Below are positions 6,095 through 56,549 of a stretch of DNA of 64,000 nt, piece after piece (the stretch's first letter is position 1; each line of letters opens with the position of its first letter). The position numbers and the translations under genes are program-made. The notes under the pieces were generated by a model, which made no database searches, was not told the DNA's origin, and saw only the letters and a list, made by a program, of their open reading frames with translations. Location of the stretch: the NCBI GenBank assembly GCA_036488585.1, contig DASXHH010000024.1, positions 85-64,084 of the forward strand, given 5' to 3'. This stretch comes from Candidatus Saccharimonadia bacterium (GTDB taxonomy: Bacteria; Patescibacteriota; Saccharimonadia; UBA4664).

Positions 6095-7120
6095 CTATAA
6101 TACTGGTTTTGCTCCGGTGGGTGCAACGGGTGCTCCAGATTGGAGCAAGCCGCGGGCTTGGAGCAGGTCGCGGGTGCGGACGAAATGTTCGTTTTGGGGC
6201 AGGAATTCGTACGGGTTATGGCGCAGGAATTTATAGAAATCGTGGAATAGAAACAGGTTAATGAGCTCGTCGAGTAGGTTGAGGCGGCCGCGGATGATGG
6301 GGGCGCTGAAGGGCTTGGGGCCGCGTTTGTTATATCCCGCGACCAGGAAGTATTTTCGAACTTGGGCCTCGGTTTTGTACTTTGAGTCAACCAAGAGGAA
6401 GGCCAGGGTGCGGGCGATGTCGAAGACGGGGTGGCCGACGGCGGTCTTCTCGAAGTCCAGGATGCCGGAAATTTCGGGGCCGGCGGGGGTTTGGCGGAAC
6501 AGGATGTTCGAGCGGACAAAATCGAGATGCAGGATTTGCTGACGTGGAATCCGGCGGCAGAGATTGAGTAGCCCGGTGAAATGGGCGAATAGTTTGGGTT
6601 GGATGGTGAGCCCGAGCTTGGCCCCGACGGCGGCTTGGACTGCGGGATCATCGAAGTAGCGGACCATGTGAGCGGTGATTTCGAGGTAATCGATGGCGGC
6701 TTCGGGGAAATCTGATGGGGGCGTGAGGTCGGCGAGCTCGGCGTGGAGGTGGCTGAGGGCAGCGCCGAGGAGTTTGAGGTGACGCCGAGTGTAAGCTTCC
6801 CAGGGGATGGTGGCGCCGGGCAAGTAGGTGTAGAGCGCGGTGTAGCGCAGGTAATGATCGTTTTTGAGCTGGGTGATAGGTCCGAGTGTGCGGCGGGTGG
6901 GCAAGCCGTGAACAGCCAGCGTATCGGACACGAAGTTAGCGCGGCGGATGCGCTCGAGGATGCCCGGTTCGCGCTTGTACACGATGAGGTTCACCGGCTC
7001 GCCGCTGGTGGGTGTAATGCGGTACGAATGGTTGCGGTAACCGCTTTGGCGCTCGGCGACGGCGAGCGGTTCCAGTCCGTACTCGCGGGCGATCCTGGTG
7101 ATGAGCTCGGGGGTGGTCAT
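6095..7120 (-). CDS. Aminoglycoside phosphotransferase (APH) / choline-ethanolamine kinase-like fold small-molecule kinase
   Basis: HLDFVRSNILF (HxDxxxxN catalytic loop) and ILDFEKTAVGHPVFDIA (DFE/DFG-like motif). Confidence 0.7.
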   Translation of the reverse strand: MTTPELITRIAREYGLEPLAVAERQSGYRNHSYRITPTSGEPVNLIVYKREPGILERIRRANFVSDTLAVHGLPTRRTLGPITQLKNDHYLRYTALYTYLPGATIPWEAYTRRHLKLLGAALSHLHAELADLTPPSDFPEAAIDYLEITAHMVRYFDDPAVQAAVGAKLGLTIQPKLFAHFTGLLNLCRRIPRQQILHLDFVRSNILFRQTPAGPEISGILDFEKTAVGHPVFDIARTLAFLLVDSKYKTEAQVRKYFLVAGYNKRGPKPFSAPIIRGRLNLLDELINLFLFHDFYKFLRHNPYEFLPQNEHFVRTRDLLQARGLLQSGAPVAPTGAKPVL

Positions 7121-14167: not shown

Positions 14168-15184
14168 ATGCAGATAGCACACCACCGGCGATCACGATGG
14201 CGCATTTTGCTCTACCCAGTGCTAGGAATTGTGGTGGCAGATTTGGCGTACCAAGCGATTGTGGCCTGGCGGGCGTGGCATATTTTGGAGCGGGCGCAGC
14301 CGGAATTTTTGATTCTGGCGGTGTTAAATCAGCTAGTGGTGTACTGGATTTTGGTGCCGGCGATGCAGCGGTTTTACGGCGCAGCGGGAATTGCACTGCA
14401 TCACCGTAGGACGTTTGGCATGCTGGCTACAGGCTTGGCGGTAGCCAGGATAATTCCCGTAGGCGAATATGTGGTGTGGCGGGCGGCTACCCGTAAGTTG
14501 CGCGGAGGCGCGAGCGCTACGACGCAGTGGTTGATTTTGTATTACGCCTGGATGTTCGCGGGATTGGTGCTGCTATTCATGGTATTCCAAGTAATAACGT
14601 TCGTGGCATATCCGAACGCGCACGTAAAGAGTCTGGTTGGTTTGCTAAGATACCTGCCAGTCTTAATGGGGGTGTTGCTGGTAATAATCGGGGTATTATT
14701 GGCCACCCAGGTATCTTGGGTGCAACGGTTGATCTGGAAGGTGGCGTTCGATCGCTTTGGCAGCCGGTCGGTGTGGCCGTGGCACATCGTGCGCGACCGC
14801 AAGCTGGGACGGTACGAGTTGGGGGCACTGAGTGCGGCGGCGGTGGGCATGTGGCTGGTGGAAGGCTTCACCATGTTTTTATGCTTATACTCACTAAATA
14901 TCCGTGTGCCGCTGGTGATTGCGATGTTTGGCTTTACGTTTGCGCGATTGTTCGCTTTGCTGCCGTTGACCCCGGGTGGAATCGGGATAATTGAGACGGG
15001 TGCAGTGCTGTTCTTTGCGGCCTATGGCTACCCGGTGGGGCCCGTGTTTACAGCGGTTGTGATTTACCGTCTCATAACCTACTGGCCGGCACTGTTGGTG
15101 GGTGCAGGGGTGTATTTGGCTGATCGCGGGGTGCCAATATCGGTGGCACTGTCTGAAGGTTACGCTCGGCTGCGGGAATCATAA
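14168..15184 (+). CDS. UPF0104 / lysylphosphatidylglycerol-synthase-TM-region-like polytopic membrane protein
   Basis: Multiple TM segments and the LPLTPGGIGIIETG motif characteristic of the MprF-TM/UPF0104 family. Confidence 0.6.
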   Translation: MQIAHHRRSRWRILLYPVLGIVVADLAYQAIVAWRAWHILERAQPEFLILAVLNQLVVYWILVPAMQRFYGAAGIALHHRRTFGMLATGLAVARIIPVGEYVVWRAATRKLRGGASATTQWLILYYAWMFAGLVLLFMVFQVITFVAYPNAHVKSLVGLLRYLPVLMGVLLVIIGVLLATQVSWVQRLIWKVAFDRFGSRSVWPWHIVRDRKLGRYELGALSAAAVGMWLVEGFTMFLCLYSLNIRVPLVIAMFGFTFARLFALLPLTPGGIGIIETGAVLFFAAYGYPVGPVFTAVVIYRLITYWPALLVGAGVYLADRGVPISVALSEGYARLRES

Positions 15185-24223: not shown

Positions 24224-25195
24224 ATGAGTTTTCAAACAGGTATACCTCCGGCAGATTGGGATGAGACACTAGCGAAACATGGCGGGCATGTGTTGCAGAG
24301 CCGGGGTTGGGCAGAATTTCAACAGGCTTTGGGCAAGGAGATAGTGTACGCGAGCGGCGATGGCTGGTGCTGGATGGGCTACCTGGAACGGCGGCGTGGT
24401 GGGCAGTTCCTGTATACGCCTTATGGCCCTGTTGCGAAGAGTGAGTCGGCGTTGCGGCAGGCAATCCAAAATTTGAAGTCGGGTGCCGGTGATTTGCGGG
24501 TCGATTTTGTTCGGCTAGAGCCGGTGGGCGCAGCGACGCCGGCTGGTTTGCGCGCATGGGGTGGGCGCCTAGTGGACGAAAATCAACCCAGGCGCACCAT
24601 CGTGATGAATCTAGCGGACAGCGTCGATGAGCTGAAGCATGGATTGGCGCAGAGTAATCGTAACCTGATCAACACGGCTGAGGCGCGCGGAGTTCGACTG
24701 GAGCGGGCTGAGTCAGCAGAAGCAACCGGGCCGTTTATGGACCTGGTCGCCCAAACTGTACGACATCAGAAAATCCATCTCTACGATGAGCGGTACTTTA
24801 AGACATTATTTGAAACGCTTATGCCCTTGGGCATGGTTCAGCTGCACTATGCGACCTATCAGGGTAGGCATGCTGCTTCGGCAGTGACGCTTGATTTCGC
24901 GGATACTCGGTACTACCTATTTGCGGCTTCGGATTTCGAACTCAACCGAGAAGCAAAGGCGGCGGTCCCCCTGCTTTGGAGTTTGATTATGGATGCCAAA
25001 GAGGCTGGCTTGGGGCAGTTCGATTTCTACGGGATCGCGCCAACCGATGACCCGAATGACAAGAAAGCTGGTATCACCCGGTTCAAGAGGTCGTTTTGCG
25101 ATAATGTAGTAACACGCGTGGGGACCTGGGAGATCCCGGTGCGAACCATGAAGTACCACTTATACGCAGTTGCAAAGCGAGCGATGTCTAAATAA
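24224..25195 (+). CDS. FemAB-family peptidoglycan interpeptide-bridge (aminoacyl-tRNA-dependent) transferase-like protein
   Basis: Length and sequence pattern resemble FemX/FemAB (GNAT-like tandem fold). Moderate confidence from memory of family features only. Confidence 0.5.
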   Translation: MSFQTGIPPADWDETLAKHGGHVLQSRGWAEFQQALGKEIVYASGDGWCWMGYLERRRGGQFLYTPYGPVAKSESALRQAIQNLKSGAGDLRVDFVRLEPVGAATPAGLRAWGGRLVDENQPRRTIVMNLADSVDELKHGLAQSNRNLINTAEARGVRLERAESAEATGPFMDLVAQTVRHQKIHLYDERYFKTLFETLMPLGMVQLHYATYQGRHAASAVTLDFADTRYYLFAASDFELNREAKAAVPLLWSLIMDAKEAGLGQFDFYGIAPTDDPNDKKAGITRFKRSFCDNVVTRVGTWEIPVRTMKYHLYAVAKRAMSK

Positions 25196-29755: not shown

Positions 29756-30388
29756 TTACTTTTCGGGGAGTAAGCTTAATAACTGAGAGAAATCCTCAAA
29801 GGAATAGTCGGCTTTCTCGGAATGACCCCAAACCATGACAGCTATGAGCCCGAGCTGCTTAGCAGGGATTATATCCACATCCTCACGGTCGCCGACAAAG
29901 ACAAGGTTGGATGGATGAGCGTTACTACGAGTGACTACAAGTTCAAATCCTTGAGGATGGGGTTTTGGCTCTGAAATGTCATCGCTGGTCAAAATATGTG
30001 TAAACCAGGAAGGATTAATGTTCACGGTATGAAGCGTGCGCTCAACACGCTCCGGCTTGGAGTTACTGAGAAGACCAATCGGTAAAACCTCGCGAATAGT
30101 GTCAACCGTTTTGTATATGCGCTCATCAGGCCTGTAATATTGGGTCTCATCTAGCTGACCAAAATATGTTGGCCAGAAGTCCTTTGGCATTCCGAGTGCC
30201 TTAAAGACCGCCGACTTGCTCCCGTACTTTTTGTAGGCAGCGCGATAGTCATCCTTGACTTCATCACTTACATCTTGATGTGTGGCCTCAGCATAGGCTT
30301 CAAGACATAGAGCATCTTGGGCCGCAAGAAATTCGGGGGTTTGCAGAGTGAGGGTTCCGTTGAGATCAAACCACATTTCTTTAATCAT
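29756..30388 (-). CDS. HAD-superfamily hydrolase (phosphatase-like), paralog 1
   Basis: Motif I FDLNGTL (DxxGT) at the N-terminus. HAD core motifs downstream (VFVGDREDVDI). Confidence 0.7.
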   Translation of the reverse strand: MIKEMWFDLNGTLTLQTPEFLAAQDALCLEAYAEATHQDVSDEVKDDYRAAYKKYGSKSAVFKALGMPKDFWPTYFGQLDETQYYRPDERIYKTVDTIREVLPIGLLSNSKPERVERTLHTVNINPSWFTHILTSDDISEPKPHPQGFELVVTRSNAHPSNLVFVGDREDVDIIPAKQLGLIAVMVWGHSEKADYSFEDFSQLLSLLPEK

Positions 30389-30533: not shown

Positions 30534-31097
30534 CTAGATGGTAACCCCTAATTGTGTAAGGTCCGTCTTCAGTTGTTCCGCCGATTTGAATTGAGTGGAA
30601 TTAATACCTATATTTGCAGCTGCTTCAACGTGACGGATATTGTCATCGATAAAAACGGATTCTGCAGGAGCTACGTGTAGTTTTTTGAGGGCTAGATGAA
30701 AAATCTCTGGGCTAGGCTTGACCATCCCCACTTCACTCGAAACCACAATAACGTCAAAATATTGTTCTAAATTATTTTCAGCAAGAATGCCTCGGATTAG
30801 TTTTGACGGTGCGTTAGAAATTAGCGCCATCTTATACTCTTTGCTGAGCTTAGAAACAATATTGACTACGGCGTTATCTACGGTAGCAGCGCCATCTACT
30901 TCTTCAAAGGTAACTTCCCGTCCCGTTAGTTCGCTTAATGTGGTTAAAAATTGTTCAGTCGTAATAGCGCCGATATCCTGCTGATGGGAAGCATCAAAAT
31001 ACGGTCCTTCGTGAGGAATTTTATTCGATGCCAGCCAGGCTTTGTAGGCATCGGTACGAATAACATCAAAGAAATCGAAAATGAGAGCTTTGATCAT
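30534..31097 (-). CDS. HAD-superfamily hydrolase, paralog 2
   Basis: MIKALIFDFFDVI N-terminal motif I, and a C-terminal VFIDDNIRHVEAA motif. Confidence 0.7.
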   Translation of the reverse strand: MIKALIFDFFDVIRTDAYKAWLASNKIPHEGPYFDASHQQDIGAITTEQFLTTLSELTGREVTFEEVDGAATVDNAVVNIVSKLSKEYKMALISNAPSKLIRGILAENNLEQYFDVIVVSSEVGMVKPSPEIFHLALKKLHVAPAESVFIDDNIRHVEAAANIGINSTQFKSAEQLKTDLTQLGVTI

Positions 31098-31181: not shown

Positions 31182-31257
31182 TGGCAGGGGTGGCAGGACT
31201 CGAACCCACGACACGCGGTTTTGGAGACCGCTGCTCTACCAACTGAGCTACACCCCT
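31182..31257 (-). tRNA. tRNA-Trp (anticodon CCA), CCA end encoded
   Basis: Manual fold: acceptor AGGGGTG/CACCCCT, D-arm GCTC/GAGC, anticodon stem GCGGT/ACCGC with loop CTCCAAA, T-loop TTCGAGT. Similar to E. coli tRNA-Trp. Confidence 0.9.
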
Positions 31258-31292
31258 ACGATGAAGGCGCCGGGAAGCGCCTTCTTATTTTG

Positions 31293-31454
31293 CTATTTAC
31301 TTTCTTTGAACTCAACTACTTTGCGTAGGAGCCGAGAGTACTTGCGGGCGACGATGCGCTCGGTAGTATTCTTGGGGTTCTTGGAGGTGGTATACACCGT
31401 GGTGGGGTCCTCCTCCGAACGCAGAGTGATGACTGGGCGGTTTTTCTTAGCCAT
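31293..31454 (-). CDS. rpmG: 50S ribosomal protein L33 (53 aa, non-Cys type); missed by the ORF track because it is under 60 aa
   Basis: Manual translation: MAKKNRPVITLRSEEDPTTVYTTSKNPKNTTERIVARKYSRLLRKVVEFKESK. Confidence 0.8.
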   Translation of the reverse strand: MAKKNRPVITLRSEEDPTTVYTTSKNPKNTTERIVARKYSRLLRKVVEFKESK

Positions 31455-31455
31455 T

Positions 31456-31653
31456 TTAGGTTACTTCTCCTTCTTTGGGGGTGATGGCGCTAGCGATCAA
31501 ATAAATGAAGACTCCGGGAAGGACGGTGGTCATGACGGTGACGGTGAGCACAATCAGACGGACCACGGTGACGTCCACTTCGATGTAGTCGGCGATGCCG
31601 GCACAGAGCCCCGAGATTTTTTTACCTTTTTCCTTGAGGACGAGGCGCTTCAT
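31456..31653 (-). CDS. PspC-domain small membrane protein (65 aa)
   Basis: MKRLVLKEKGKKISGLCAGIADYIEVDVTVVRLIV matches the PspC N-terminal motif plus one TM. The ORF-track extension upstream runs into tRNA-Thr and is not coding. Confidence 0.55.
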   Translation of the reverse strand: MKRLVLKEKGKKISGLCAGIADYIEVDVTVVRLIVLTVTVMTTVLPGVFIYLIASAITPKEGEVT

Positions 31654-31680
31654 TGGGGATAAATCCTTTAATTCTTTAAA

Positions 31681-31755
31681 TGGAGCCCAAGGTGGGGATT
31701 GAACCCACGACCCCTTCCTTACCATGGAAGTGCTCTGCCACTGAGCTACTTGGGC
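31681..31755 (-). tRNA. tRNA-Thr (anticodon GGT), CCA encoded
   Basis: Manual fold: GCCCAAG acceptor, GCTC/GAGC D-arm, anticodon loop ATGGTAA, T-arm GTGGG/CCCAC with loop TTCAATC. Confidence 0.9.
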
Positions 31756-32020
31756 ATGTGCAACTGTCAAACCATAGCACAAATCGCTTGATACGGCAAC
31801 CCATTGAGGACGGGTGACTCGGGTCTCTCGCTAGTTCAAAGCCAGCCCAATTTTTGAGCATAACCGGGTTGAGCCTCAGGTATAAATTTGGTAAAATTTA
31901 AACGTAAGTAGTTTGTGAGGAACAGGTCTGAACACCCGGCGTTTTATACGTATAGGGATCTCGTCAAGAAAACTGCTTACTGCCCTGGCCCTCGCGGCGA
32001 CTGGGCTAGTTTGGGTTGGA

Positions 32021-35000
32021 GTGCTAGTTGGGACTGCCCAGCCTGCTCAGGCCGCGGCCGGCATCAACCAACAGATCAACTTCCAGGGTCGGCTGCTGAC
32101 CGCTAGCGGAGCGGTGGTGGCGGATGGCACTTACAACATGGAGTTCCAAATCTGGCAGGACGGCAATGGCTGCGTTACCGGCTGTACCAGTGCAAATGCC
32201 AACACCAGTAACGGTGGTACCCTGAAGTGGACTGAGGATTGGATCTATGGCACCGGCTCACCTGACAACCGGGTGACCGTTAAGAACGGTTACTATTCAG
32301 TGTCTCTGGGCTCAATCACCTCATTGTCGAGCGTTGACTTCAACCAGAACACCCTGTGGCTATCCATGAACGTTGGTGACACCTCAAACCAGGCCTCCTT
32401 CGCTACTTCCGGTGGTTATCTCATTCCGTTTAAGCGCCTAGCGAGTGCGGTGTACGCTTTGCAGGCGGCTAATTCCAGTGCCCTTGGTAACGTTGCGGCC
32501 GCTAACTATGTGCAATTTGGCACCGGTACCCTCCAGGCTGACAATTCCACCAACTCCAGCATCTATTTCAATAAGACCAACACTGGGAATCTGCTGCAAC
32601 TACAGACCGGCGGCACAAATGCCTTTGTGCTAGATAACTTGGGCAACCTACAATTTGGCAACAACTCAGACAAGACGATCTCGGTGGCCACCGCCAGCTC
32701 GGCCAACGGTAATAGCCTAACGGTGGTGGCTGGTTCGGGCAACGGGACTAGTAAGAACGGCGGGAACCTGGTGTTGGAGGCTGGAGCGGCGACCAGTGGT
32801 GGCACCGGGGGTAGCATTATCGTCAAACCCCTTACCGACTCCACTGCGGCCTTCCAGATCAAAAATGCTGCCGGTAACACTTTCGTCAGCGCCGATTCGA
32901 CGATCAGCAAGCTCACCGTCACGAGCGCCGGCGCGCCGGCCGTCACGGGCTCAGAACTCATAACCACCACTGCCTTCAATAACGCTGCCTGGACATCCGC
33001 CGGCTGGACCACGACCTCTACCACCGCCGCCCATAACACCGGCAACACTTCGCCCCTGTCCACCGGCCAGTTCAGTGCCGTTTCGGGGACTACCTACCAA
33101 GTCACCTTTACCGTCACTGGTAGCCCTACTGCCGGCCAAACCATTACCCCCTGTATCGGCACCACCTGTGGCCAGGCCGTAGCGGGTAACACCACCGGCC
33201 AGGTCGAGCTCATCACGGCCGGGAGCACGCTCACCCCGGCCCTCCAATTCGAGCCCACCACCTCAACCTGGAATGGCACCATCTCCGCCGTCTCGGTCAA
33301 GGCCATCACCGCCGCCTCCGCCGGCCTTTCCGTCACTGATGCTACCTCATCCTTCCCGATTGAGCTACGCAGTAGCGGCGCCTTCGGCAATACCTTTATC
33401 GGCACCTCCTCTGGCTCCTTCGACACCACCGGCTCCCGCAACACCGCCGAGGGCTGGGGCGCCCTGGGCTCCGTCACCACCGGCACCGAAAACACCGCTT
33501 CCGGTTATAACACCCTCCAGGACAACACCACCGGTGGCCAAAACGCGGCCTTTGGTCGCTGGGGTCTACAACTCAACACCACCGGCTCGGGCAATACGGC
33601 GCTTGGCTACGCGGCCGGGCTCAACAACGTCACCGGATCCAACAACACCTTCCTTGGCGCTGGGGCCAGCGAGGACTCATCGGCGGTAGGAGCCCTCCAA
33701 AACGCCACCGCCATTGGAGTGAACTCATTGGTCGCTCAATCCGATAGCCTAGTCCTTGGCTGCATCAACGGTCAAAACAGCTGTACCGCCACCACCAAGG
33801 TCGGTATCGGCACCTCGGCCCCAACCGCCACTCTGGATGTACGCGGCGATACCCAGATCACCAGCGCTTCAACCACTTCCTTCCAGGTGCAGGGTAGCTC
33901 CAGCAGCGCTGTGTTTACAGTGGATACCAGCTCCAACTCCGGCCAGGGCCAGATAATCCTCGGCAAGCCTTCCACTAACAAGGGCGTGATCGTCTTTGAT
34001 GATTCGGTCTCGGCTAATACCGCTTCGCTGAGCGTCGCTGGCAACTCTAATGGTGGCGGTGCTTTTACCTTGCCCAACCTGTCCGGCGCCCAGACCATCT
34101 GCACAAGCAACGCTACCAGTTGTAGCGGTACCTATCTGACGGCTGGTAACTATCTGCAGCAGGCGCCGTCTAGTAGTGCGACCAACACCATCTCGCCGAC
34201 CGGCGCTTCCACCACCGGCCTCATAGTGCAGCAAACCTCCACTTCCGGCGGAGCACCCGACATCTTTGATGTTTACGGCACCTCGAGTGCTACCAAGTTT
34301 ATCCAGGTAACTGGAACTGCATCCAACGCCGGTGCAATTAATATTACGTCCCAAGGGGCCGGCAACGCCGTAACCATTCAAGGTGCGGGCAACGTTAACC
34401 TCGTCACTAATAGTGCCAGCACTGGTACGATCGTTAAGAACTCCACCAACTCCACTTCCGGCTTCCAGGTTCAGCGATCTACCGGTGACACTCTGCTGGG
34501 AGTTGATACCGTTAACAGCAACGTGAACATTCAGGGTGCCAACCTGGTGACGCCTTATGGTGGTCTCGGGATCTACCAGAACTTGCTCAAGTATACCGAG
34601 CAGTTTGATCAGGCGGGTACTTGGGCTGTTTCCGGAACTTTGACAGTGGCGGCAAATTCGACTTCAGCGCCGAATAACCAGACGACTGCGGATACACTTC
34701 CGGCCACTAGTTCCGGTGCTAGCGTCGCTCAGACCTCAACAACCGCCGTGGCCAACACAAACTTTACCTTTAGCGTCTGGATGAGAACCTCCAGTGGTAC
34801 GCAAAACGCGAACCTGCGGATTGATGGCTCCGGTGGTGGCACCGGCACATCGAGCGCGGCGACAGTGACCGCCAACTGGCAGCGCTTTAGTGTGACGCAA
34901 AACCTTAACCCGGGTTCGGGCTTCAGTGGCAATGCCAAGGTGCTGATTTTCCCCGGTACCACCGCTGGCACTGGAACAGTTATAGCCTGGGGGGCTCAGC

Positions 35001-38000
35001 TTGAGCAGGCCAGCACACCTTCAAACTATGCGGCCATGGGCAATGGTGTTTCTACCGCCAGCCAGGTGTTTGGCCAAGTGGTCGACGGCTCGGCATTGTT
35101 CCGCACCTCAAGTGATAACTCGGCTGCCTTCCAGATCCAAAATTCCGCGGGTACAAATCTGTTTTCGGCCAATACGAGCACCGGTCAGCTGGTGGTTGGT
35201 AGTTCCAATAGCCTTAACGGTACGCTGGTGTTTGCCGATAGCGGCGATTCGCAGACCATTACAGTGGGCACCGATAGCAGTGGATCGCTCAATGTGGCGG
35301 TGCCAGGCGGCGGCGGTACCAACCTGCCTCAACTCGATTATGCCGCGCACTTTGCGCAGACAGCTGCAAACACGCCAGCTCTTCCATGGAGCAACACCTA
35401 CAACGTCAATGGTGCCAATAATCCTAACGGTAATACCGATACATATTTGCTCGTGGGGATTATTGACCATAATAGTTGCACAAATACAATCTCTTCCGTG
35501 CAATTCAACTCTACCTCCATGACGCTGATAGGATCCAATACCAAGGGTACCGGGAGCGCTACCTGTTACTACTTGTACGGTTTGGCTGGTGCTACTGGGT
35601 CCCATTCATTGACTATTTCTGGTGCTGGGACCGCTGAAATATATTCAGTCAATGTCACGAGTTGGTATAACGTCAACCAAACGACCCCGTACGGTAGCTT
35701 CCAAACTGCTGCCGGTGGTTTTTCACAGGCGCCAGCGATTAACTATAATTGGCCCGCTGGGCGCGTAGTGGTGGATAACATGAGTGCGTATTTGTATATA
35801 ACTAACGTTTCGACGTCGAGTCTTTGCCAGATGGGACCGGTGGCGCCGCAAAAAGTTGCAGCTGTCGGTGGCGCTACCTCCGAGGTATGTGTTAACGGTA
35901 CTGGTGGAGATATTTTTAGCACTGACGGGGCAAGCTACGCTGATAGCAACGGTAGGAATATGCAAATGGCCTGGACATCGGCCGGTGCTATTGCGACGGG
36001 GTTTTCAGACCCCAGTAATAGTAATGACACTGTGGGTCAGTGGGTTACAGGTGCGGTTGACCTGATAGGTGATACTGGCGGTACGGCAACATTTGGCAAT
36101 AGCAATACCGGTGGTACGTCAGATGGTGGCAACGATGTGAAACAATGGGAGTGTAGCAGCTATGTCTCAACCGCTACTGGTACCGTTTCGTCAATAACCT
36201 CGCAATTTGCCAGCATAGATACGGCTGCCACGGGGGCTGATGGCGTTAACCCGGCGAAAGATGCCGAAGCAGCCGTCTATAGCAACTTTGCTGGGAATAA
36301 CAATATCGGCGGTGAGCCAGGACGTCCGTTGGCGCAAAGCTCTATTGTGCAGTTGGTGGCAGGGGCGAATACATTCAATATGACCAGCAGTACGCAGGTA
36401 TACGCCGGTACACAGTACTGGTTGTGCATAACTAGTAACACAAACTCGGCTACAAGCAACACACTCTTGGAGGATGCGAACCAAAATGTGCCCTATGAAT
36501 ACTTTAAAGCTAGCCCAAGTTCATGGAGTTTTGGTAGCTGGCCGAGCAATATGTCGTCAACTACAAATATAGGTACTTTTGTAGGAGAAGGTTTAGAAAT
36601 TTATGCAACCGTAACTAGGAATACTCCTTCCGGAACGGTAATGAATCTATCTAACTCCGGCCAACTTACGCTCCAAAATGCTAGCGATAGCACAAGCGCC
36701 TTCCAGGTTCAAAACGCCAGCGGTAACGCCCTGATTAACGTCGATACCCAGGACAACCAGGTAAACATTAACGGTGCGCTGTCTGGCTCGGTCGTGCGTT
36801 ATGCTGATTACGGCACTGGAAGTGGTACATTTAATATTCCGATAGTTTCAGCCGGGGTGGGATACAATCTTTCGAGCAATTTCTACACCTCTTCGGGAGG
36901 TGGAACCTACATGAGCCAGTTCAATATTACGGGGTTGCCACAGGTCGAGGGGACGATTGTCTACATAATGACCACTGCTAATAAGCAGACGACCGCTACA
37001 AGCGGCAATGATGAGGTTCAGGTTGAGATAAACGGTACGCTAATAAGCAGTTTGACAGCGTTGGCTGCGTCCGGCACCGGTACTGGTACGACCCATGAGG
37101 ACTACACTCTGATGTATAGCGGGGGGGTTTGGCACATCGTGGGTTATGGACCGGATGCGACCAACGGTACCACCGGTGGCACAAATACAAACGGAACTTT
37201 TGACGGTGCTGACTATGCTGAATACATTGACTACAGCGGTGACATTGCGCCGCAGCCAGGCGACGTACTGACTGTGGGCGGCAACTTTACAACGGTGAAG
37301 GACTCAACGGGAGCATACGACTCACATCTCATGGGCGTAGTGTCTACTGCCCCGTACACGGTGGGTGGTAAGGACGATGGACATGCGGTGGTCTTGGCGC
37401 TAACTGGACGTGTGCCTGTTAAGGTATCGGCAGAAAACGGAGCGATTTCGCCCGGGGACCCACTCACCTCTTCGTCTCTTCCGGGGGTGGCTATGAAGGC
37501 GACCAAGCCGGGTAATATTATTGGAACGGCGCTTGAGGCCTACGACGGCACGGAAACGAGTAACGAAATTAATGTTCAGCTGCATGTGGGCTACGATGAC
37601 CCAACAGCCGGTCAATTGGGTGACCAGATCCAAGGCGATATGCAGCTATCAGGTAACCTTAATATAGGCGGCAGCGCTACGATCGGGGGCGATTTAACAG
37701 TAGCTGGGACTACGACCACTAAAACGCTTGTGGTGACGGGCGACGCGAATGTGAAAGGGGGTTTGACGGTCGGCGGTACAACTAACCTCGCCGATATCAG
37801 TGTAAACGGTCATATTGTTACCGGCGGCAGCACGCCGACGATTAGTGCGCTCACGGCGGCTGGTTTGCAGGGCGCTTCAGCGCAGGTGGATGGCAATGAT
37901 ACGTCAGGTACAGTCACCATTACTACTGGGAGCGCCGGGGCGAGCGGTATGACGCCGGGCGATTTGGCGCAACTTACGTTTAATAAGGCATTTGGCGCCG

Positions 38001-38152
38001 CGCCGCGGGCGGTAGTATCGGCCAACAATGCGGCTAGTGCGCAGCTGGGTGTGTTCACTACCAGTATTACCCCACAATCGTTCAACTTGTCGGTGGCCGG
38101 TAAGCCCGAGCCGAATACTACTTACGTCTTTACTTATATCGTGCTGCAGTAG
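32021..38152 (+). CDS. Giant (2043 aa) secreted Gly/Thr/Ser/Asn/Ala-rich repeat protein, predicted beta-helix/fibre-like adhesin or surface protein; true start probably upstream at a non-canonical codon
   Basis: Single 6.1-kb ORF. Recurrent ~30-aa motif [ST]xAFQ[IV][QK]N[AS]xG(N/T)x(L/F)... at least six times. In-frame upstream codons encode SSRKLLTALALAATGLVWVGVLVGTAQPAQA|AAG (signal peptide) but contain no ATG/GTG/TTG. Confidence 0.8.
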   Translation: MLVGTAQPAQAAAGINQQINFQGRLLTASGAVVADGTYNMEFQIWQDGNGCVTGCTSANANTSNGGTLKWTEDWIYGTGSPDNRVTVKNGYYSVSLGSITSLSSVDFNQNTLWLSMNVGDTSNQASFATSGGYLIPFKRLASAVYALQAANSSALGNVAAANYVQFGTGTLQADNSTNSSIYFNKTNTGNLLQLQTGGTNAFVLDNLGNLQFGNNSDKTISVATASSANGNSLTVVAGSGNGTSKNGGNLVLEAGAATSGGTGGSIIVKPLTDSTAAFQIKNAAGNTFVSADSTISKLTVTSAGAPAVTGSELITTTAFNNAAWTSAGWTTTSTTAAHNTGNTSPLSTGQFSAVSGTTYQVTFTVTGSPTAGQTITPCIGTTCGQAVAGNTTGQVELITAGSTLTPALQFEPTTSTWNGTISAVSVKAITAASAGLSVTDATSSFPIELRSSGAFGNTFIGTSSGSFDTTGSRNTAEGWGALGSVTTGTENTASGYNTLQDNTTGGQNAAFGRWGLQLNTTGSGNTALGYAAGLNNVTGSNNTFLGAGASEDSSAVGALQNATAIGVNSLVAQSDSLVLGCINGQNSCTATTKVGIGTSAPTATLDVRGDTQITSASTTSFQVQGSSSSAVFTVDTSSNSGQGQIILGKPSTNKGVIVFDDSVSANTASLSVAGNSNGGGAFTLPNLSGAQTICTSNATSCSGTYLTAGNYLQQAPSSSATNTISPTGASTTGLIVQQTSTSGGAPDIFDVYGTSSATKFIQVTGTASNAGAINITSQGAGNAVTIQGAGNVNLVTNSASTGTIVKNSTNSTSGFQVQRSTGDTLLGVDTVNSNVNIQGANLVTPYGGLGIYQNLLKYTEQFDQAGTWAVSGTLTVAANSTSAPNNQTTADTLPATSSGASVAQTSTTAVANTNFTFSVWMRTSSGTQNANLRIDGSGGGTGTSSAATVTANWQRFSVTQNLNPGSGFSGNAKVLIFPGTTAGTGTVIAWGAQLEQASTPSNYAAMGNGVSTASQVFGQVVDGSALFRTSSDNSAAFQIQNSAGTNLFSANTSTGQLVVGSSNSLNGTLVFADSGDSQTITVGTDSSGSLNVAVPGGGGTNLPQLDYAAHFAQTAANTPALPWSNTYNVNGANNPNGNTDTYLLVGIIDHNSCTNTISSVQFNSTSMTLIGSNTKGTGSATCYYLYGLAGATGSHSLTISGAGTAEIYSVNVTSWYNVNQTTPYGSFQTAAGGFSQAPAINYNWPAGRVVVDNMSAYLYITNVSTSSLCQMGPVAPQKVAAVGGATSEVCVNGTGGDIFSTDGASYADSNGRNMQMAWTSAGAIATGFSDPSNSNDTVGQWVTGAVDLIGDTGGTATFGNSNTGGTSDGGNDVKQWECSSYVSTATGTVSSITSQFASIDTAATGADGVNPAKDAEAAVYSNFAGNNNIGGEPGRPLAQSSIVQLVAGANTFNMTSSTQVYAGTQYWLCITSNTNSATSNTLLEDANQNVPYEYFKASPSSWSFGSWPSNMSSTTNIGTFVGEGLEIYATVTRNTPSGTVMNLSNSGQLTLQNASDSTSAFQVQNASGNALINVDTQDNQVNINGALSGSVVRYADYGTGSGTFNIPIVSAGVGYNLSSNFYTSSGGGTYMSQFNITGLPQVEGTIVYIMTTANKQTTATSGNDEVQVEINGTLISSLTALAASGTGTGTTHEDYTLMYSGGVWHIVGYGPDATNGTTGGTNTNGTFDGADYAEYIDYSGDIAPQPGDVLTVGGNFTTVKDSTGAYDSHLMGVVSTAPYTVGGKDDGHAVVLALTGRVPVKVSAENGAISPGDPLTSSSLPGVAMKATKPGNIIGTALEAYDGTETSNEINVQLHVGYDDPTAGQLGDQIQGDMQLSGNLNIGGSATIGGDLTVAGTTTTKTLVVTGDANVKGGLTVGGTTNLADISVNGHIVTGGSTPTISALTAAGLQGASAQVDGNDTSGTVTITTGSAGASGMTPGDLAQLTFNKAFGAAPRAVVSANNAASAQLGVFTTSITPQSFNLSVAGKPEPNTTYVFTYIVLQ

Positions 38153-38224: not shown

Positions 38225-38310
38225 TGGTGCCGGGTGAGAGATTCGAACTCCCGAAGACTAATGTCAGCTGATTTACAGTCAGCCCTCGTTGGCCACTTGA
38301 GTAACCCGGC
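38225..38310 (-). tRNA. tRNA-Tyr (anticodon GTA), type II with long variable arm, CCA encoded
   Basis: Manual fold: acceptor GCCGGGT/ACCCGGC, anticodon loop CTGTAAA, long variable arm, T-loop TTCGAAT. Confidence 0.9.
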
Positions 38311-38320
38311 GCGATTTCTC

Positions 38321-38396
38321 TGGAGCCGACGACAGGAATCGAACCCGCAACCTACAGTTTACAAAACTGTTGCTCTGCCAGTTGAGCTACGTCGGC
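38321..38396 (-). tRNA. tRNA-Thr (anticodon TGT), CCA encoded
   Basis: Manual fold: acceptor GCCGACG/CGTCGGC, anticodon stem ACAGT/ACTGT with loop TTTGTAA, T-loop TTCGATT. Confidence 0.9.
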
Positions 38397-39979: not shown

Positions 39980-40873
39980 TTATACCTGTTTCTCGAGTTC
40001 GCGTCTGATATTCACCAGATCGGGAGGCAATGGGCTTTCGAGCTGGAGGTGCTGGCCGGAGGGGGCGGTAAACTCTAGGGCTGAGGCATGCAAAAACTGT
40101 CGGTTTAACCCGAGGGGCCGCCGGGGCGGGCCATAGAGTGTATCGCCAGCTACCGGATGTCCAATGCTAGCCAGATGCACACGGATCTGATGGGTGCGGC
40201 CGGTTTCGGGGTTAGCCTCAAGCAGTGCGTAGCCCGGATAGGTCTGAAGGGTGCGATAACGCGTGACGGCTTCGCGGCCGCCGGGGATTACCGATCGGCG
40301 CAAGGGCCGGGCGGGGTCGCGATCGAGAGGCAGGCGGATGACGGCCTCGGCTGGGGACGGGCGGCCTACCACCAACGTGGTATAGGTTTTATGAACGGCC
40401 CGGCTGGCAAACTGTTGCTGAAGGTAGGCCTTGGATTCCGAGGTTTTAGCCAAGATGACAAGGCCGGAGGTATCAAGGTCGAGGCGGTGCACGATGCCGG
40501 GCCGCTCAGGATCGGGATCGGTGGTGTGGTGACGCGCGAAATCCGCCACTGTTGGCTCCCCTTCTAGACCTGATCCTGGATGCATGGCAAGTCCGGCAGG
40601 TTTGTTAACGACGAGCAGATCGTCGTCTTCATAAATTATATTGAGTTGCGGGGCTGGGGCTGGAGTGACGGTGGGTGTTTCCTCATTCACTTCCAGCCGG
40701 TCGCCGGGCTGTACTTGGTAGCTGGGGCGCTCTGGCTCGCCATTTACGGTTACCGCCGCGGCCTGCAGGAGTTTTTGAACCCGATTGCGCGGTAGACTGA
40801 GCGCGGCCGCCAAGTACACATCGAGCCGCTCACTGGCGGCTCCCTCCGGCACAGTTAGGTGGCGCCTTGTCAC
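39980..40873 (-). CDS. RluA-family 23S rRNA pseudouridine synthase (RluD-like, S4 domain plus catalytic domain)
   Basis: Catalytic HRLDLDTSGLVILAKT motif. N-terminal S4-like region. Confidence 0.85.
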   Translation of the reverse strand: MTRRHLTVPEGAASERLDVYLAAALSLPRNRVQKLLQAAAVTVNGEPERPSYQVQPGDRLEVNEETPTVTPAPAPQLNIIYEDDDLLVVNKPAGLAMHPGSGLEGEPTVADFARHHTTDPDPERPGIVHRLDLDTSGLVILAKTSESKAYLQQQFASRAVHKTYTTLVVGRPSPAEAVIRLPLDRDPARPLRRSVIPGGREAVTRYRTLQTYPGYALLEANPETGRTHQIRVHLASIGHPVAGDTLYGPPRRPLGLNRQFLHASALEFTAPSGQHLQLESPLPPDLVNIRRELEKQV

Positions 40874-41862
40874 CTAATGAGCTCCGAGGCCCCGGTAAGG
40901 TCACGTTTGGAGCCCAATATAATGAGTCGGTCGCCGGGATAAATAATTTCTTTGCCGGTGGGACGGACGCGGCTAGTGCCATCGGCGCCGTTAATGGCAA
41001 TCACGGTGGCACCGATTTCACCCTCGGCCAGCGCTTTGCCGAGACGCCGGCCGGCCAGGCGCGAGTGCTCCCCCACCACCATCTCCTCTACCTCCAGCTC
41101 CGTAACGCCGTTTTTTGACATAATGTCCATGTAGTCGACCACGTTGGGACGCAAAGCCATAGAGGCCATATGGTAGCCGCCAATCTGGTACGGCATGGCG
41201 ACACGGTTGGCACCGGCGCGTTTGAGCTTGAGCTCGTTTTCGGGGCGATTGGCTCGGGCCACAATATACAGATTGGGGTTGAGTGAGCGGGCGGCCAGAA
41301 CCACAAACAGGTTGAGCGAATCTTCGCCGAGGCACGCCACCAGTCCGGCAGCGCGATCGATGCCTACTTCGGTGAGCGATTCCTCGACCGTGGAGTCGTA
41401 AGGCAATGCCAGATAGCCCTTCGCCAGGGCATCATCAACTTTGGCCGTGTCCTTGTCGAGGCCAACGAAAGGCACGCCCTCGTGGAACATTTCACCGGCC
41501 ACCTGGGCGCCGACACGGCCGAGGCCACACACAATGTAGTGGTCTTTGAGTTTTTCAACTTTTGTCTTCACGCGTAATTTTCGTACATTATTGGTTAAGC
41601 CCATCATATATTCGGCTAACCACTTAAGCAAATAAGCGATTAGTCCCAGGCTGGAGATGGTCAGTAAGATAACCAGAGTGCGAGCAACGGGATCGGTAAA
41701 TGTTACGTTGCTATAACGGTCGAGCAGAATGATGAGAGTTTCATAGAGGGCATCACCGAGAGCCATGTGTCCGTACACAGTAAAGCCGGCCGTACCAACC
41801 AGCACTACAGCGATGGCGGCCAAGGCAAAGCGCCTGACTGTTCTAGCGTTATGCTCCTCCAC
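40870..41862 (-). CDS. RCK/TrkA-domain membrane protein (K+ channel/transporter-like; no canonical TVGYG filter seen)
   Basis: N-terminal TM helices, then the Rossmann motif YIVCGLGRVGAQVA (TrkA-N) and a TrkA-C domain. Confidence 0.65.
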   Translation of the reverse strand: MEEHNARTVRRFALAAIAVVLVGTAGFTVYGHMALGDALYETLIILLDRYSNVTFTDPVARTLVILLTISSLGLIAYLLKWLAEYMMGLTNNVRKLRVKTKVEKLKDHYIVCGLGRVGAQVAGEMFHEGVPFVGLDKDTAKVDDALAKGYLALPYDSTVEESLTEVGIDRAAGLVACLGEDSLNLFVVLAARSLNPNLYIVARANRPENELKLKRAGANRVAMPYQIGGYHMASMALRPNVVDYMDIMSKNGVTELEVEEMVVGEHSRLAGRRLGKALAEGEIGATVIAINGADGTSRVRPTGKEIIYPGDRLIILGSKRDLTGASELIR

Positions 41863-56222: not shown

Positions 56223-56549
56223 CTAGCGCTTTTTTCGAGAAAGAACCCGGATTTCCTGTCCGAGCCCACGATTCATGAGAATTAATCCGGTAATAGAGAG
56301 AGTGGCGGCGATGAGGTAAGAGATGAGCCACCAACGATTTTGGACGAAGATGCGCCGCTCGACTACGGCTGGGGTAAACGCAAAGATAGTCGAAATATTG
56401 CCGAGCCACCAACCCTTTACGAGTTGCTCCGGTTTTTTGACACGACGATGACGCGCCAAGCGATGGACTTTTAGGTATTTGAGCGATACCTGGAGGTTCA
56501 GGAAAATGATTATTGGCAGCGGCAGGTTAGCAAGAATAAATACCAGCAT
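56223..56549 (-). CDS. Hypothetical small membrane protein
   Basis: ORF with hydrophobic helices only. The true start is uncertain. Confidence 0.3.
   Translation of the reverse strand: MLVFILANLPLPIIIFLNLQVSLKYLKVHRLARHRRVKKPEQLVKGWWLGNISTIFAFTPAVVERRIFVQNRWWLISYLIAATLSITGLILMNRGLGQEIRVLSRKKR

What the first reader, a model, noticed from the sequence alone, without database searches (positions are those of the whole stretch)
31916..32023. Signal peptide of the giant protein is encoded in frame upstream of the first canonical start codon
Reading the 32021 frame upstream from the GTG, there is no stop until 31916-31918. The codons encode ...GISSRKLLTALALAATGLVWVGVLVGTAQPAQA AAG, a textbook Sec signal peptide (RK n-region, hydrophobic core, AQA cleavage site). 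None of the 34 in-frame codons is ATG, GTG or TTG; candidates are ATC (31958), ATA or CTG. Either a rare initiation codon is used, or there is a sequencing error or frameshift at the 5' end, or initiation really is at the GTG and the protein uses a non-classical export route.
Basis: seen in the sequence. Interest (0 to 1): 0.55.

Follow-up and report, generated by a model that had tools for sequence, protein, structure and literature searches.

The report
Giant secreted protein starts at CTG
A 2,074-residue surface protein of a Saccharibacteria (TM7) bacterium most likely begins at a rare CTG start codon that gene finders do not consider, so the public annotation begins 31 codons too late and cuts off most of its export signal.

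Summary
The frame of the giant ORF is open from the TGA at 31916-31918. It has no ATG, GTG or TTG before the GTG at 32021. It encodes a signal peptide at the same position as the signal peptides of every homologue examined.

The best explanation is initiation at CTG 31928-31930. This codon lies 7 nt after a GAGG(A) Shine-Dalgarno at 31917-31921. That in turn sits in a ~24-nt leader behind a conserved sigma-70-type promoter.

The same leader followed by an in-frame CTG is found in five other, independently assembled Saccharimonadia loci (44-83% amino-acid identity over the first ~105-260 mature residues). In three of these no canonical start can supply the signal peptide either. One relative (L082) has a canonical TTG at exactly that codon.

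The rival ideas do not fit these relatives:
- a frameshift or indel from the out-of-frame GTG at 31915;
- TGA read-through;
- a true start at GTG 32021 with non-classical export.

NCBI annotates the protein (VGH44_06500) from the GTG, which leaves 10 of the 42 signal-peptide residues.

CUG initiation is rare in bacteria but known (RepA, Deinococcus rpsL). This is therefore a new member of a known kind and an annotation correction. Initiation itself is inferred from sequence comparison, not shown.

The parts
31869..31897 (+). Sigma-70-type promoter: -35 TTGAGC (31869-31874), 17-nt spacer, TG-extended -10 TAAAAT (31892-31897).
   Evidence: One search found one site, against 0.3 expected. The -35 TTG and the -10 TAnAAT are conserved in relatives (alignment A2). 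The transcription start near 31903-31905 is inferred, not measured.
31903..31920 (+). Conserved 5' leader CGTAAGTAGTTTGTGAGG, probably the very 5' end of the mRNA.
   Evidence: It occurs once in the window. L012 and L082 match with 0-1 mismatch, and close variants occur in L083, L086, L090, L089 and L002. Mean pairwise DNA identity is 0.73 here, against about 0.40 further upstream. No Rfam family matches.
31916..31918 (+). In-frame TGA stop that bounds the reading frame upstream. It overlaps the Shine-Dalgarno region.
   Evidence: The same in-frame TGA occurs in L083, L086, L090 and L092. The window's only tRNA-Trp has anticodon CCA.
31917..31921 (+). Shine-Dalgarno GAGGA. The core GAGG ends 7 nt before the CTG.
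   Evidence: In window ORFs that have an SD, the GAGG-to-start spacing is 4-11 nt and 7-8 nt is commonest. GAGG is kept in the window, L083, L082, L012, L086 and L090, with spacing 7-8 nt. L089 has AAGGAG with 5 nt.
31928..31930 (+). Proposed initiation codon CTG (CUG), decoded as fMet.
   Evidence: It is in frame and has an SD at 7 nt. The homologous codon is CTG in L083, L012, L086, L090 and L089, and TTG in L082. Initiation here is inferred.
31928..32053 (+). Signal peptide of 42 codons: n-region 31928-31972, h-region 31973-32032, c-region 32033-32053 ending A-Q-A.
   Evidence: One search gives the composition. Searches show that it aligns with the family's signal peptides and cleavage motif.
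32021..32023 (+). GTG used as the start in the public annotation (P0050, VGH44_06500, 2043 aa). It is codon 32 (Val), inside the h-region.
   Evidence: A start here leaves only MLVGTAQPAQA before the cleavage site.
32054..38152 (+). Mature giant protein (2,032 residues) plus stop codon. It starts AAGINQQINFQGRLL. No Pfam domain was found.
31915..31917 (+). Out-of-frame GTG inside the leader (start of the mechanical 63-aa ORF 31915-32106). Rejected as the start.
   Evidence: Its frame relative to the gene differs in L012, it is GCG in L082 and GCA in L089, and its frame ends after 5-7 codons in L012 and L083.

Best explanation
The gene for the giant exported protein runs from 31928 to 38152 and starts at a CUG codon.

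Proposed sequence of events:
1. A conserved sigma-70-type promoter (TTGAGC, 17 nt, TAAAAT) starts the transcript near 31904.
2. This gives a leader of about 24 nt. Its GAGG(A) at 31917-31921 pairs with the 16S rRNA tail.
3. That pairing places CUG 31928 in the ribosomal P site, where initiator fMet-tRNA reads it with a first-position mismatch. UUG and GUG are read the same way.
4. The product, MNTRRFIRIGISSRKLLTALALAATGLVWVGVLVGTAQPAQA|AAGINQQ..., carries a 42-residue Sec-type signal peptide.
5. Signal peptidase I probably cleaves it after A-Q-A.

Because CUG is a weak start in bacteria where it has been measured, the codon probably keeps synthesis of this very large surface protein low.

Shown here: the sequence anatomy, the homology of the signal peptide, the conservation of leader, SD and CTG, and the TTG at the same codon in one relative.

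Inferred: the transcription start, initiation at CUG, the Sec route, the cleavage site, and the reason for a weak start.
For: 1. The start must lie between the stop at 31916 and the h-region at about 31973, because homologues carry a signal peptide at this position.

2. In that interval only CTG 31928 has an SD (GAGG, 7 nt). That spacing is the commonest in this window's SD-led ORFs. A window-wide scan for SD plus near-cognate codon upstream of ORFs of 100 aa or more listed five; this one precedes the 2,043-aa gene, and the other four precede 100-133-aa ORFs that I judged spurious without testing them.

3. Comparison with relatives:
- L083 is 83% identical and has the same tRNA-Trp/tRNA-Thr neighbours. 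It reads TGA GGA GCC GTT CTG AAC and has no canonical start before the c-region.
- L012 (829-kb contig) and L086 have the same leader plus CTG AAC and no canonical start that gives a signal peptide.
- L090 and L089 keep the CTG at the same distance from the SD.
- L082 has TTG AAT at exactly that codon.

4. CTG makes up only 28-48% of Leu codons in these genes. Six CTG and one TTG at one site is therefore more uniform than an ordinary Leu codon would be, though the loci are related and not independent.

5. DNA identity is 0.73 in the leader, as high as in the best-conserved coding parts. It is 0.43-0.50 in the n-region that follows.

6. CUG initiation has precedent. It runs at 1-2% of AUG in E. 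coli (bioRxiv 10.1101/063800). RepA and the conserved rpsL of Deinococcus-Thermus start at CTG (PMC2830850).
Against: - There is no experimental evidence for the N-terminus, the transcription start or the cleavage site.
- SignalP could not be run.
- CUG is a poor start in E. coli, and UUG-to-CUG switches are very rare (1 of 2,468; PMC5622118).
- L089 and L090 also have canonical in-frame starts nearby: an ATG abutting the SD in L090, and a TTG upstream plus an ATG downstream in L089. They do not prove that the CTG is used.
- L091 and L003 have an in-frame GTG inside the leader, so start positions vary within the family.
- The CTG-bearing loci are related and may exchange their 5' ends by recombination, so they are not independent observations.
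- Reads of this MAG could not be inspected.
Confidence: 0.78

Rival explanations
1. Initiation is at another near-cognate codon inside the n-region: ATA 31946, ATA 31952, ATC 31958 or CTG 31973. This would give a shorter signal peptide.
For: All four codons are in frame and lie upstream of, or at the edge of, the h-region. AUA, AUC and AUU initiate about as well as CUG in E. coli (bioRxiv 10.1101/063800). L092 seems to have ATC at the SD-defined start position, and L010 has ATA where L017 has ATG. In L089 an ATG sits just before the h-region, so a very short n-region may be workable.
Against: None of these codons has GGAG or GAGG at 4-11 nt upstream. None is conserved: L086 has no ATH codon at all between the stop and the h-region. 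A start at CTG 31973 would leave no positive charge in the n-region.
Confidence: 0.08
2. An assembly or sequencing error, or a recent inactivating mutation, has removed a canonical start. For example, CTG was TTG, or an indel put GTG 31915 out of frame.
For: The window comes from a metagenome-assembled genome. One base change, C31928T, would give the TTG seen in L082. The GTG at 31915 opens a 63-codon ORF in the -1 frame.
Against: Three other independent assemblies (L083, L012, L086) show the same CTG with no usable canonical start. The 2,074-codon frame is intact. The GTG of the leader lies in a different frame in L012, is GCG or GCA in L082 and L089, and runs into a stop after 5-7 codons in L012 and L083.
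Confidence: 0.05
3. Recoding: either a start at GTG 31915 followed by a programmed +1 frameshift, or a start at TTG 31913 with read-through of TGA 31916 as a sense codon.
For: TTG-TGA-GGA is shared by the window, L083, L086 and L090. Some Patescibacteria read UGA as Gly (general knowledge).
Against: - The tRNA-Trp in the window has anticodon CCA, and ORFs in the window end at TGA under table 11.
- In L012 the TTG is out of frame and a TAA lies upstream.
- Neither TTG 31913 nor GTG 31915 has an SD, and both lie only about 10 nt from the predicted transcript start.
- A frameshift would have to be +1 in the window and -1 in L012.
Confidence: 0.03
4. The annotated GTG 32021 is the real start. The protein lacks a signal peptide and is cytoplasmic or exported by a non-classical route.
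For: It is the first canonical start, and NCBI's annotation uses it.
Against: The upstream peptide is homologous to the family's signal peptides, and its h-region DNA is among the best-conserved stretches (0.78). GTG 32021 lies inside the h-region and has no SD. In L083 and L012 the first canonical codon falls at a different, non-homologous place.
Confidence: 0.03

Closest known systems
CUG-initiated bacterial genes: repA of an E. coli plasmid, rpsL and Deide_03051 of Deinococcus-Thermus (PMC2830850)
   Same: A near-cognate CTG serves as the start. In rpsL the CTG is conserved across related genomes. Standard gene finders miss it, and the case was recognised because conserved N-terminal sequence lay upstream of the first canonical start.
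   Different: Those cases have proteomic or genetic proof; this one rests on comparison only. Here the gene is a giant secreted protein of Saccharibacteria, and what the wrong start removes is a signal peptide.
infC (AUU or AUA start) and pcnB (AUU start) of E. coli and other bacteria
   Same: A weak non-canonical start is maintained by selection, presumably to limit or regulate translation.
   Different: In infC the weak codon is the sensor of an IF3 feedback loop. No such loop is known or tested here, and the codon is CUG rather than AUU.
Giant surface, S-layer-like proteins of Saccharibacteria with the N-terminal A-x-A|x-x-G-I-N-Q-Q-I-N-F-Q-G-R-L-L module
   Same: The window's protein has the same signal peptide architecture and the same conserved mature N-terminal domain (40-60% identity over about 260 residues). 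Some relatives are named 'S-layer family protein' or 'exported protein of unknown function' by their sources.
   Different: Most members start at ATG, GTG or TTG. 74 of the 76 species-representative loci have a canonical start far enough upstream. The window belongs to a subgroup with the GTAAGTAGTTTGTGAGG leader and a CTG start.

Membership tests
Gene with a non-canonical (CUG) initiation codon | Conserved N-terminal sequence lies upstream of the first ATG, GTG or TTG, and the frame is closed by a stop further upstream. | tested here: met
   TGA at 31916 is followed by 34 codons without a canonical start. These encode a signal peptide that aligns with those of homologues.
Gene with a non-canonical (CUG) initiation codon | A near-cognate codon sits at working distance from a ribosome-binding site. 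| tested here: met
   GAGG(A) at 31917-31921 lies 7 nt before CTG 31928. In this window the spacing is 4-11 nt, most often 7-8.
Gene with a non-canonical (CUG) initiation codon | The codon is conserved in orthologues, or replaced by a canonical start at the same position. | tested here: met
   CTG in L083, L012, L086, L090 and L089; TTG in L082.
Gene with a non-canonical (CUG) initiation codon | The protein N-terminus or the initiating ribosome is mapped to that codon. | not testable with these tools
   This needs start-site ribosome profiling, toeprinting or reporter mutagenesis. The signal peptide is cleaved, so ordinary N-terminal proteomics would not see it.
Sec-type signal peptide cleaved by signal peptidase I | Positively charged n-region, hydrophobic h-region, and small residues at -3 and -1. 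| tested here: met
   5 Arg/Lys and no Asp/Glu in 15 residues; 20-residue h-region with mean KD 2.17; A-Q-A before the cleavage site. SignalP itself was not available.
Sec-type signal peptide cleaved by signal peptidase I | No lipobox Cys (which would mean a lipoprotein) and no functional twin-arginine motif next to the h-region. | tested here: inconclusive
   There is no Cys in the peptide. T-R-R-F is present at residues 3-6, but it lies 10 residues before the h-region and is not conserved (L082 has T-Q-R-V, L086 has D-R-N-F). Whether the genome has a Tat system was not checked.
Programmed frameshift or indel artefact at the 5' end | A canonical start in another frame, joined to the gene by a shift that is the same in relatives. 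| tested here: not met
   GTG 31915 would need a +1 shift in the window and L083 but a -1 shift in L012. It is missing in L082 and L089.
UGA-recoding genetic code (tables 4 and 25) | In-frame TGA inside conserved genes, and a tRNA that reads UGA. | tested here: not met
   The tRNA-Trp has anticodon CCA. Long ORFs are intact under table 11. L012 has no in-frame TTG-TGA.
Leaderless mRNA | The start codon lies at the transcript's 5' end, 5-8 nt after the -10 box. | tested here: not met
   The -10 box ends at 31897 and the CTG is 30 nt further on, with an SD between them. Other ORFs in the window do fit the leaderless pattern.

The most novel reading that the evidence does not exclude
In this Saccharimonadia lineage start-codon selection may be relaxed or deliberately exploited. 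On this reading the conserved module (promoter, GUAAGUAGUUUGUGAGG leader, CUG, and in relatives AUC or AUA) is a dedicated translational throttle for giant surface proteins. It might respond to IF3 level, or to a leader-to-coding-region RNA pairing (31904-31914 with 31970-31980). Near-cognate starts would then be common enough in these small-genome bacteria that many exported proteins are systematically annotated without their signal peptides.
Probability: 0.15. Interest if true: 0.6.

Novelty: new member of a known kind. Interest (0 to 1): 0.4.

Why it matters
The public record for this protein (VGH44_06500), and the gene calls on record for L012 and L086, start inside the signal peptide. Any localisation or secretome analysis would therefore class these very large surface proteins as cytoplasmic.

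Surface proteins of this kind are prime candidates for host attachment in the epibiotic Saccharibacteria. The case shows that gene finders limited to ATG, GTG and TTG fail here. It also offers a simple test for such failures: a family-wide signal peptide lying upstream of the called start.

Biologically, a CUG start kept over roughly 45-83% protein identity suggests selection for weak or regulated translation of an expensive 2,000-residue protein. If that holds, it would add a conserved CUG start to the few known in bacteria.

Tried and rejected
- **Exact-sequence look-up of the window protein.** Nothing was found, because the translation begins with V while the database entry begins with M. 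The homology search then identified it as P0050.
- **DNA for three relatives.** The same-MAG paralogue P0069 is not on record. For P0063 and P0051 the sample files are too large.
- **A mis-specified leader pattern.** It found nothing. It was replaced by a fuzzy search.
- **RNA structure of the leader.**
  - The window's minimum-energy fold is not better than shuffled sequence (z = -0.64).
  - The alignment fold found only a small hairpin inside the h-region coding sequence, with one compensatory pair.
  - The leader/codon 15-18 helix is 75% paired in 9 relatives, against 25-48% for slid controls. It shows no real covariation and was derived from one of the sequences. It is left as inconclusive.
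- **Rfam.** No family matches the leader.
- **Pfam.** No domain was found in the giant protein.
- **Literature.** The search returned no paper on non-canonical starts in Saccharibacteria or Patescibacteria.
- **Rejected on the evidence.** Frameshift from GTG 31915, TGA read-through, a leaderless start, a start at GTG 32021, and a Tat signal. Reasons are given under the rivals and in the membership table.
Full report
**What is there**

The window is part of a 64,108-bp contig of a Candidatus Saccharimonadia (TM7) metagenome-assembled genome. The giant ORF is NCBI protein VGH44_06500. It is annotated as 2,043 residues starting at the GTG at 32021.

Reading that frame upstream gives a TGA at 31916-31918. 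After it come 34 sense codons with no ATG, GTG or TTG. The translation is GTGLNTRRFIRIGISSRKLLTALALAATGLVWVGVLVGTAQPAQA, followed by AAGINQQINFQGRLL.

**Is the upstream peptide real?**

An open stretch of 34 codons is not significant by itself. The homology is.
- A search with the N-terminal 327 residues found 49 relatives, the named ones nearly all labelled Saccharibacteria.
- A pattern scan of species-representative genomes gave 80 loci.
- A full-length search gave 161 proteins.

Every member in which the motif was found has an N-terminal signal peptide ending A-x-A. Two residues later comes the nearly invariant G-[IV]-N-x-x-[ILVM]-N-F-Q-G-R-L-L. The window's upstream peptide aligns with these signal peptides, and its h-region LLTALALAATGL matches relatives closely.

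From GTG 32021 only MLVGTAQPAQA would precede the cleavage site. The true start must therefore lie between 31919 and about 31973.

**Which codon?**

The near-cognate candidates in that interval are CTG 31928, ATA 31946, ATA 31952, ATC 31958 and CTG 31973. Only CTG 31928 is preceded by a Shine-Dalgarno: GAGG(A) at 31917-31921, with 7 nt between GAGG and the codon.

In this window, 32 of 68 ORFs of at least 100 aa have GGAG or GAGG upstream of a possible start within 80 codons of the first. The GAGG-to-start spacing runs from 4 to 11 nt, with 7-8 nt the commonest. A window-wide scan for SD plus near-cognate codon in upstream extensions of ORFs of at least 100 aa listed five ORFs. One is the giant gene. 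The other four are 100-133 codons long, and I took them to be spurious without testing this.

A sigma-70-type promoter lies just upstream: TTGAGC, 17 nt, TG-extended TAAAAT, ending at 31897. That predicts a transcript start near 31904 and a leader of about 24 nt.

**Comparative evidence**

This is the decisive part.
- **L083.** A metagenome scan found L083, which is 83% identical over the 105 mature residues it holds. It has the same tRNA-Trp(CCA) and tRNA-Thr(GGT) genes upstream, so it is an orthologue from an independent sample. It reads GTAAGTAGTGTTTTG TGA GGA GCC GTT CTG AAC. That is the same in-frame stop, the same SD and the same CTG, with no canonical start until 12 codons before the conserved Gly.
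- **L082.** It is 57% identical over 249 residues and 72% in the best segment. It has the same leader but reads TTG AAT where the window reads CTG AAC. A canonical start thus sits at exactly the homologous codon.
- **L012.** It lies on an 829-kb contig and is 49% identical. It has GTAAGTAGTTTGTGAGG, 8 nt, then CTG AAC. A TAA lies upstream, and the only canonical start falls within the last residues of the h-region.
- **L086.** It is 47% identical and reads TGA GGA AGG GTC CTG AAC. Its first canonical start is in the middle of the h-region. CTG is its only good near-cognate codon.
- **L090 and L089.** Both keep the CTG at the same distance from the SD. Both also have canonical in-frame codons: an ATG abutting the SD in L090, and a TTG upstream plus an ATG downstream in L089.

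So the codon is CTG in six loci and TTG in one. CTG accounts for only 28-48% of Leu codons in these genes.

DNA identity among seven of these loci is 0.73 in the leader. It drops to 0.43-0.50 in the n-region and rises to 0.78 in the h-region. The -35 TTG and the -10 TAnAAT are conserved too.

**Rivals**

- **Frameshift.** The GTG at 31915, inside the conserved leader, opens a 63-codon ORF in another frame. A shift from it into the gene would have to be +1 in the window and L083 but -1 in L012. Its frame ends after 5-7 codons in L012 and L083. It is GCG in L082 and GCA in L089. A frameshift or indel explanation is therefore not consistent across relatives.
- **Read-through.** A start at TTG 31913 with read-through of TGA fails in L012, where the TTG is out of frame. 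It also conflicts with the tRNA-Trp(CCA) and with normal TGA stops in the window.
- **Leaderless start.** The CTG lies 30 nt after the -10 box, so a leaderless start does not fit.
- **Other near-cognates.** The ATA and ATC codons lack an SD and are not conserved.
- **Assembly error.** An error at 31928 cannot be excluded without reads. It is unlikely, because three other assemblies share the CTG without a usable canonical start.

**How it probably works**

The mRNA starts near 31904. GAGG pairs with the anti-SD and sets CUG 31928 in the P site, where initiator tRNA reads it as fMet.

The 42-residue signal peptide has 5 positive charges, a 20-residue h-region and a TAQPAQA c-region. It directs Sec export and is probably cut after A42 (codon 32051-32053). 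The mature protein then starts at 32054.

CUG gives 1-2% of AUG output in E. coli (bioRxiv 10.1101/063800). UUG-to-CUG replacements are very rare in evolution (1 of 2,468; PMC5622118). Its persistence here suggests selection for low or regulated synthesis of a very large surface protein. All of these steps are inferred from sequence; none was measured.

**Comparison with what is known**

CTG is a recognised but rare start in the bacterial code. Known cases include RepA of an E. coli plasmid, and rpsL and Deide_03051 of Deinococcus. In rpsL the CTG is conserved across the phylum and was confirmed by proteomics (PMC2830850). infC and pcnB use AUU for regulation.

The present case meets every sequence-level criterion for a CUG-initiated gene, but it lacks the experimental criterion. 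The literature searches returned no paper on non-canonical starts in Saccharibacteria or Patescibacteria. I file it as a new member of a known kind.

**Wider pattern**

- Of the 76 species-representative loci with the motif, 74 have a canonical start far enough upstream. The exceptions are L012 (CTG) and L010 (ATA where L017 has ATG).
- L092 has GAGG, 7 nt, then ATC where its relatives L087 and L088 have GTG-ATT or GTG-ATC.
- At least 17 complete family proteins in the database (those that begin with M or V) are called with fewer than 22 residues before the motif. Some of these are plain gene-caller errors with a canonical start available upstream.

**Verdict**

The rare-start interpretation is supported and refined to CTG 31928 (confidence about 0.78). 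Interest is moderate: the finding corrects public annotations and adds a conserved CUG start in an understudied phylum, but the mechanism is of a known kind.

Noticed in passing
window ORFs 6095-7120(-), 14168-15184(+), 24224-25195(+), 29756-30388(-), 30534-31097(-), 40870-41862(-), 56223-56549(-): Many ORFs have a TATAAT-like box ending 5-8 nt before their ATG or GTG and no Shine-Dalgarno. This suggests widespread leaderless mRNAs in this genome. About half of the ORFs of at least 100 aa instead have GGAG or GAGG upstream of a start.
   Followed up: partly
window 31904-31914 and 31970-31980: The 5' end of the leader (GUAAGUAGUUU) is complementary to AAACUGCUUAC (codons 15-18), so the SD and the CUG would sit inside a roughly 55-nt loop. 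In 9 relatives 75% of cells pair, against 25-48% for slid controls, but there is no real covariation. The fold energy is not unusual (z = -0.64).
   Followed up: partly
window 31973-32018, and the same stretch in L082, L012, L086, L089, L090 and L002: The h-region coding sequence (ACT GCC CTG GCC CTC GCG GC...) is conserved at the DNA level, synonymous sites included (0.78 mean pairwise identity), in proteins only about 45-60% identical. This could reflect an RNA-level constraint or exchange of 5' ends between paralogues. Neither was tested.
   Followed up: no
L092 about 899-1034 (ENA contig k141_5349760); L010 about 27-174: Two further family members lack a canonical start for their signal peptide. 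L092 has GAGG, 7 nt, then ATC where L087 and L088 have GTG-ATT or GTG-ATC. L010 has ATA where L017 has ATG. Each is a single observation, so sequencing error is not excluded.
   Followed up: partly
proteins P0040, P0044, P0048, P0053, P0067, P0068, P0069, P0070, P0078, P0081, P0086, P0124, P0153, P0158, P0164 and others: At least 17 complete family proteins (beginning with M or V) among the 128 with the motif are called with fewer than 22 residues before it, so their signal peptides are truncated. For L087 and L088 a canonical GTG exists upstream, so those are plain gene-caller errors. P0069 is a paralogue from the same MAG (VGH44_00845) with only 11 residues before the motif. Its DNA could not be fetched.
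   Followed up: partly
window 31182-31755 and 38225-38396: The giant gene sits between tRNA-Thr(GGT) and a tRNA-Tyr/tRNA-Thr(UGU) pair, all on the opposite strand. rpmG (L33, 31293-31454) lies between tRNA-Trp and tRNA-Thr(GGT). The gene therefore appears to be inserted in a tRNA cluster. L083 shares the upstream side of this arrangement. G+C falls to 0.47-0.51 at 26-32 kb, against about 0.57 elsewhere.
   Followed up: no
L087, L088, L090, L091, L092 (upstream gene): In several relatives a PKD-domain protein of about 315 residues lies directly upstream of the giant gene on the same strand. The window lacks this neighbour.
   Followed up: no
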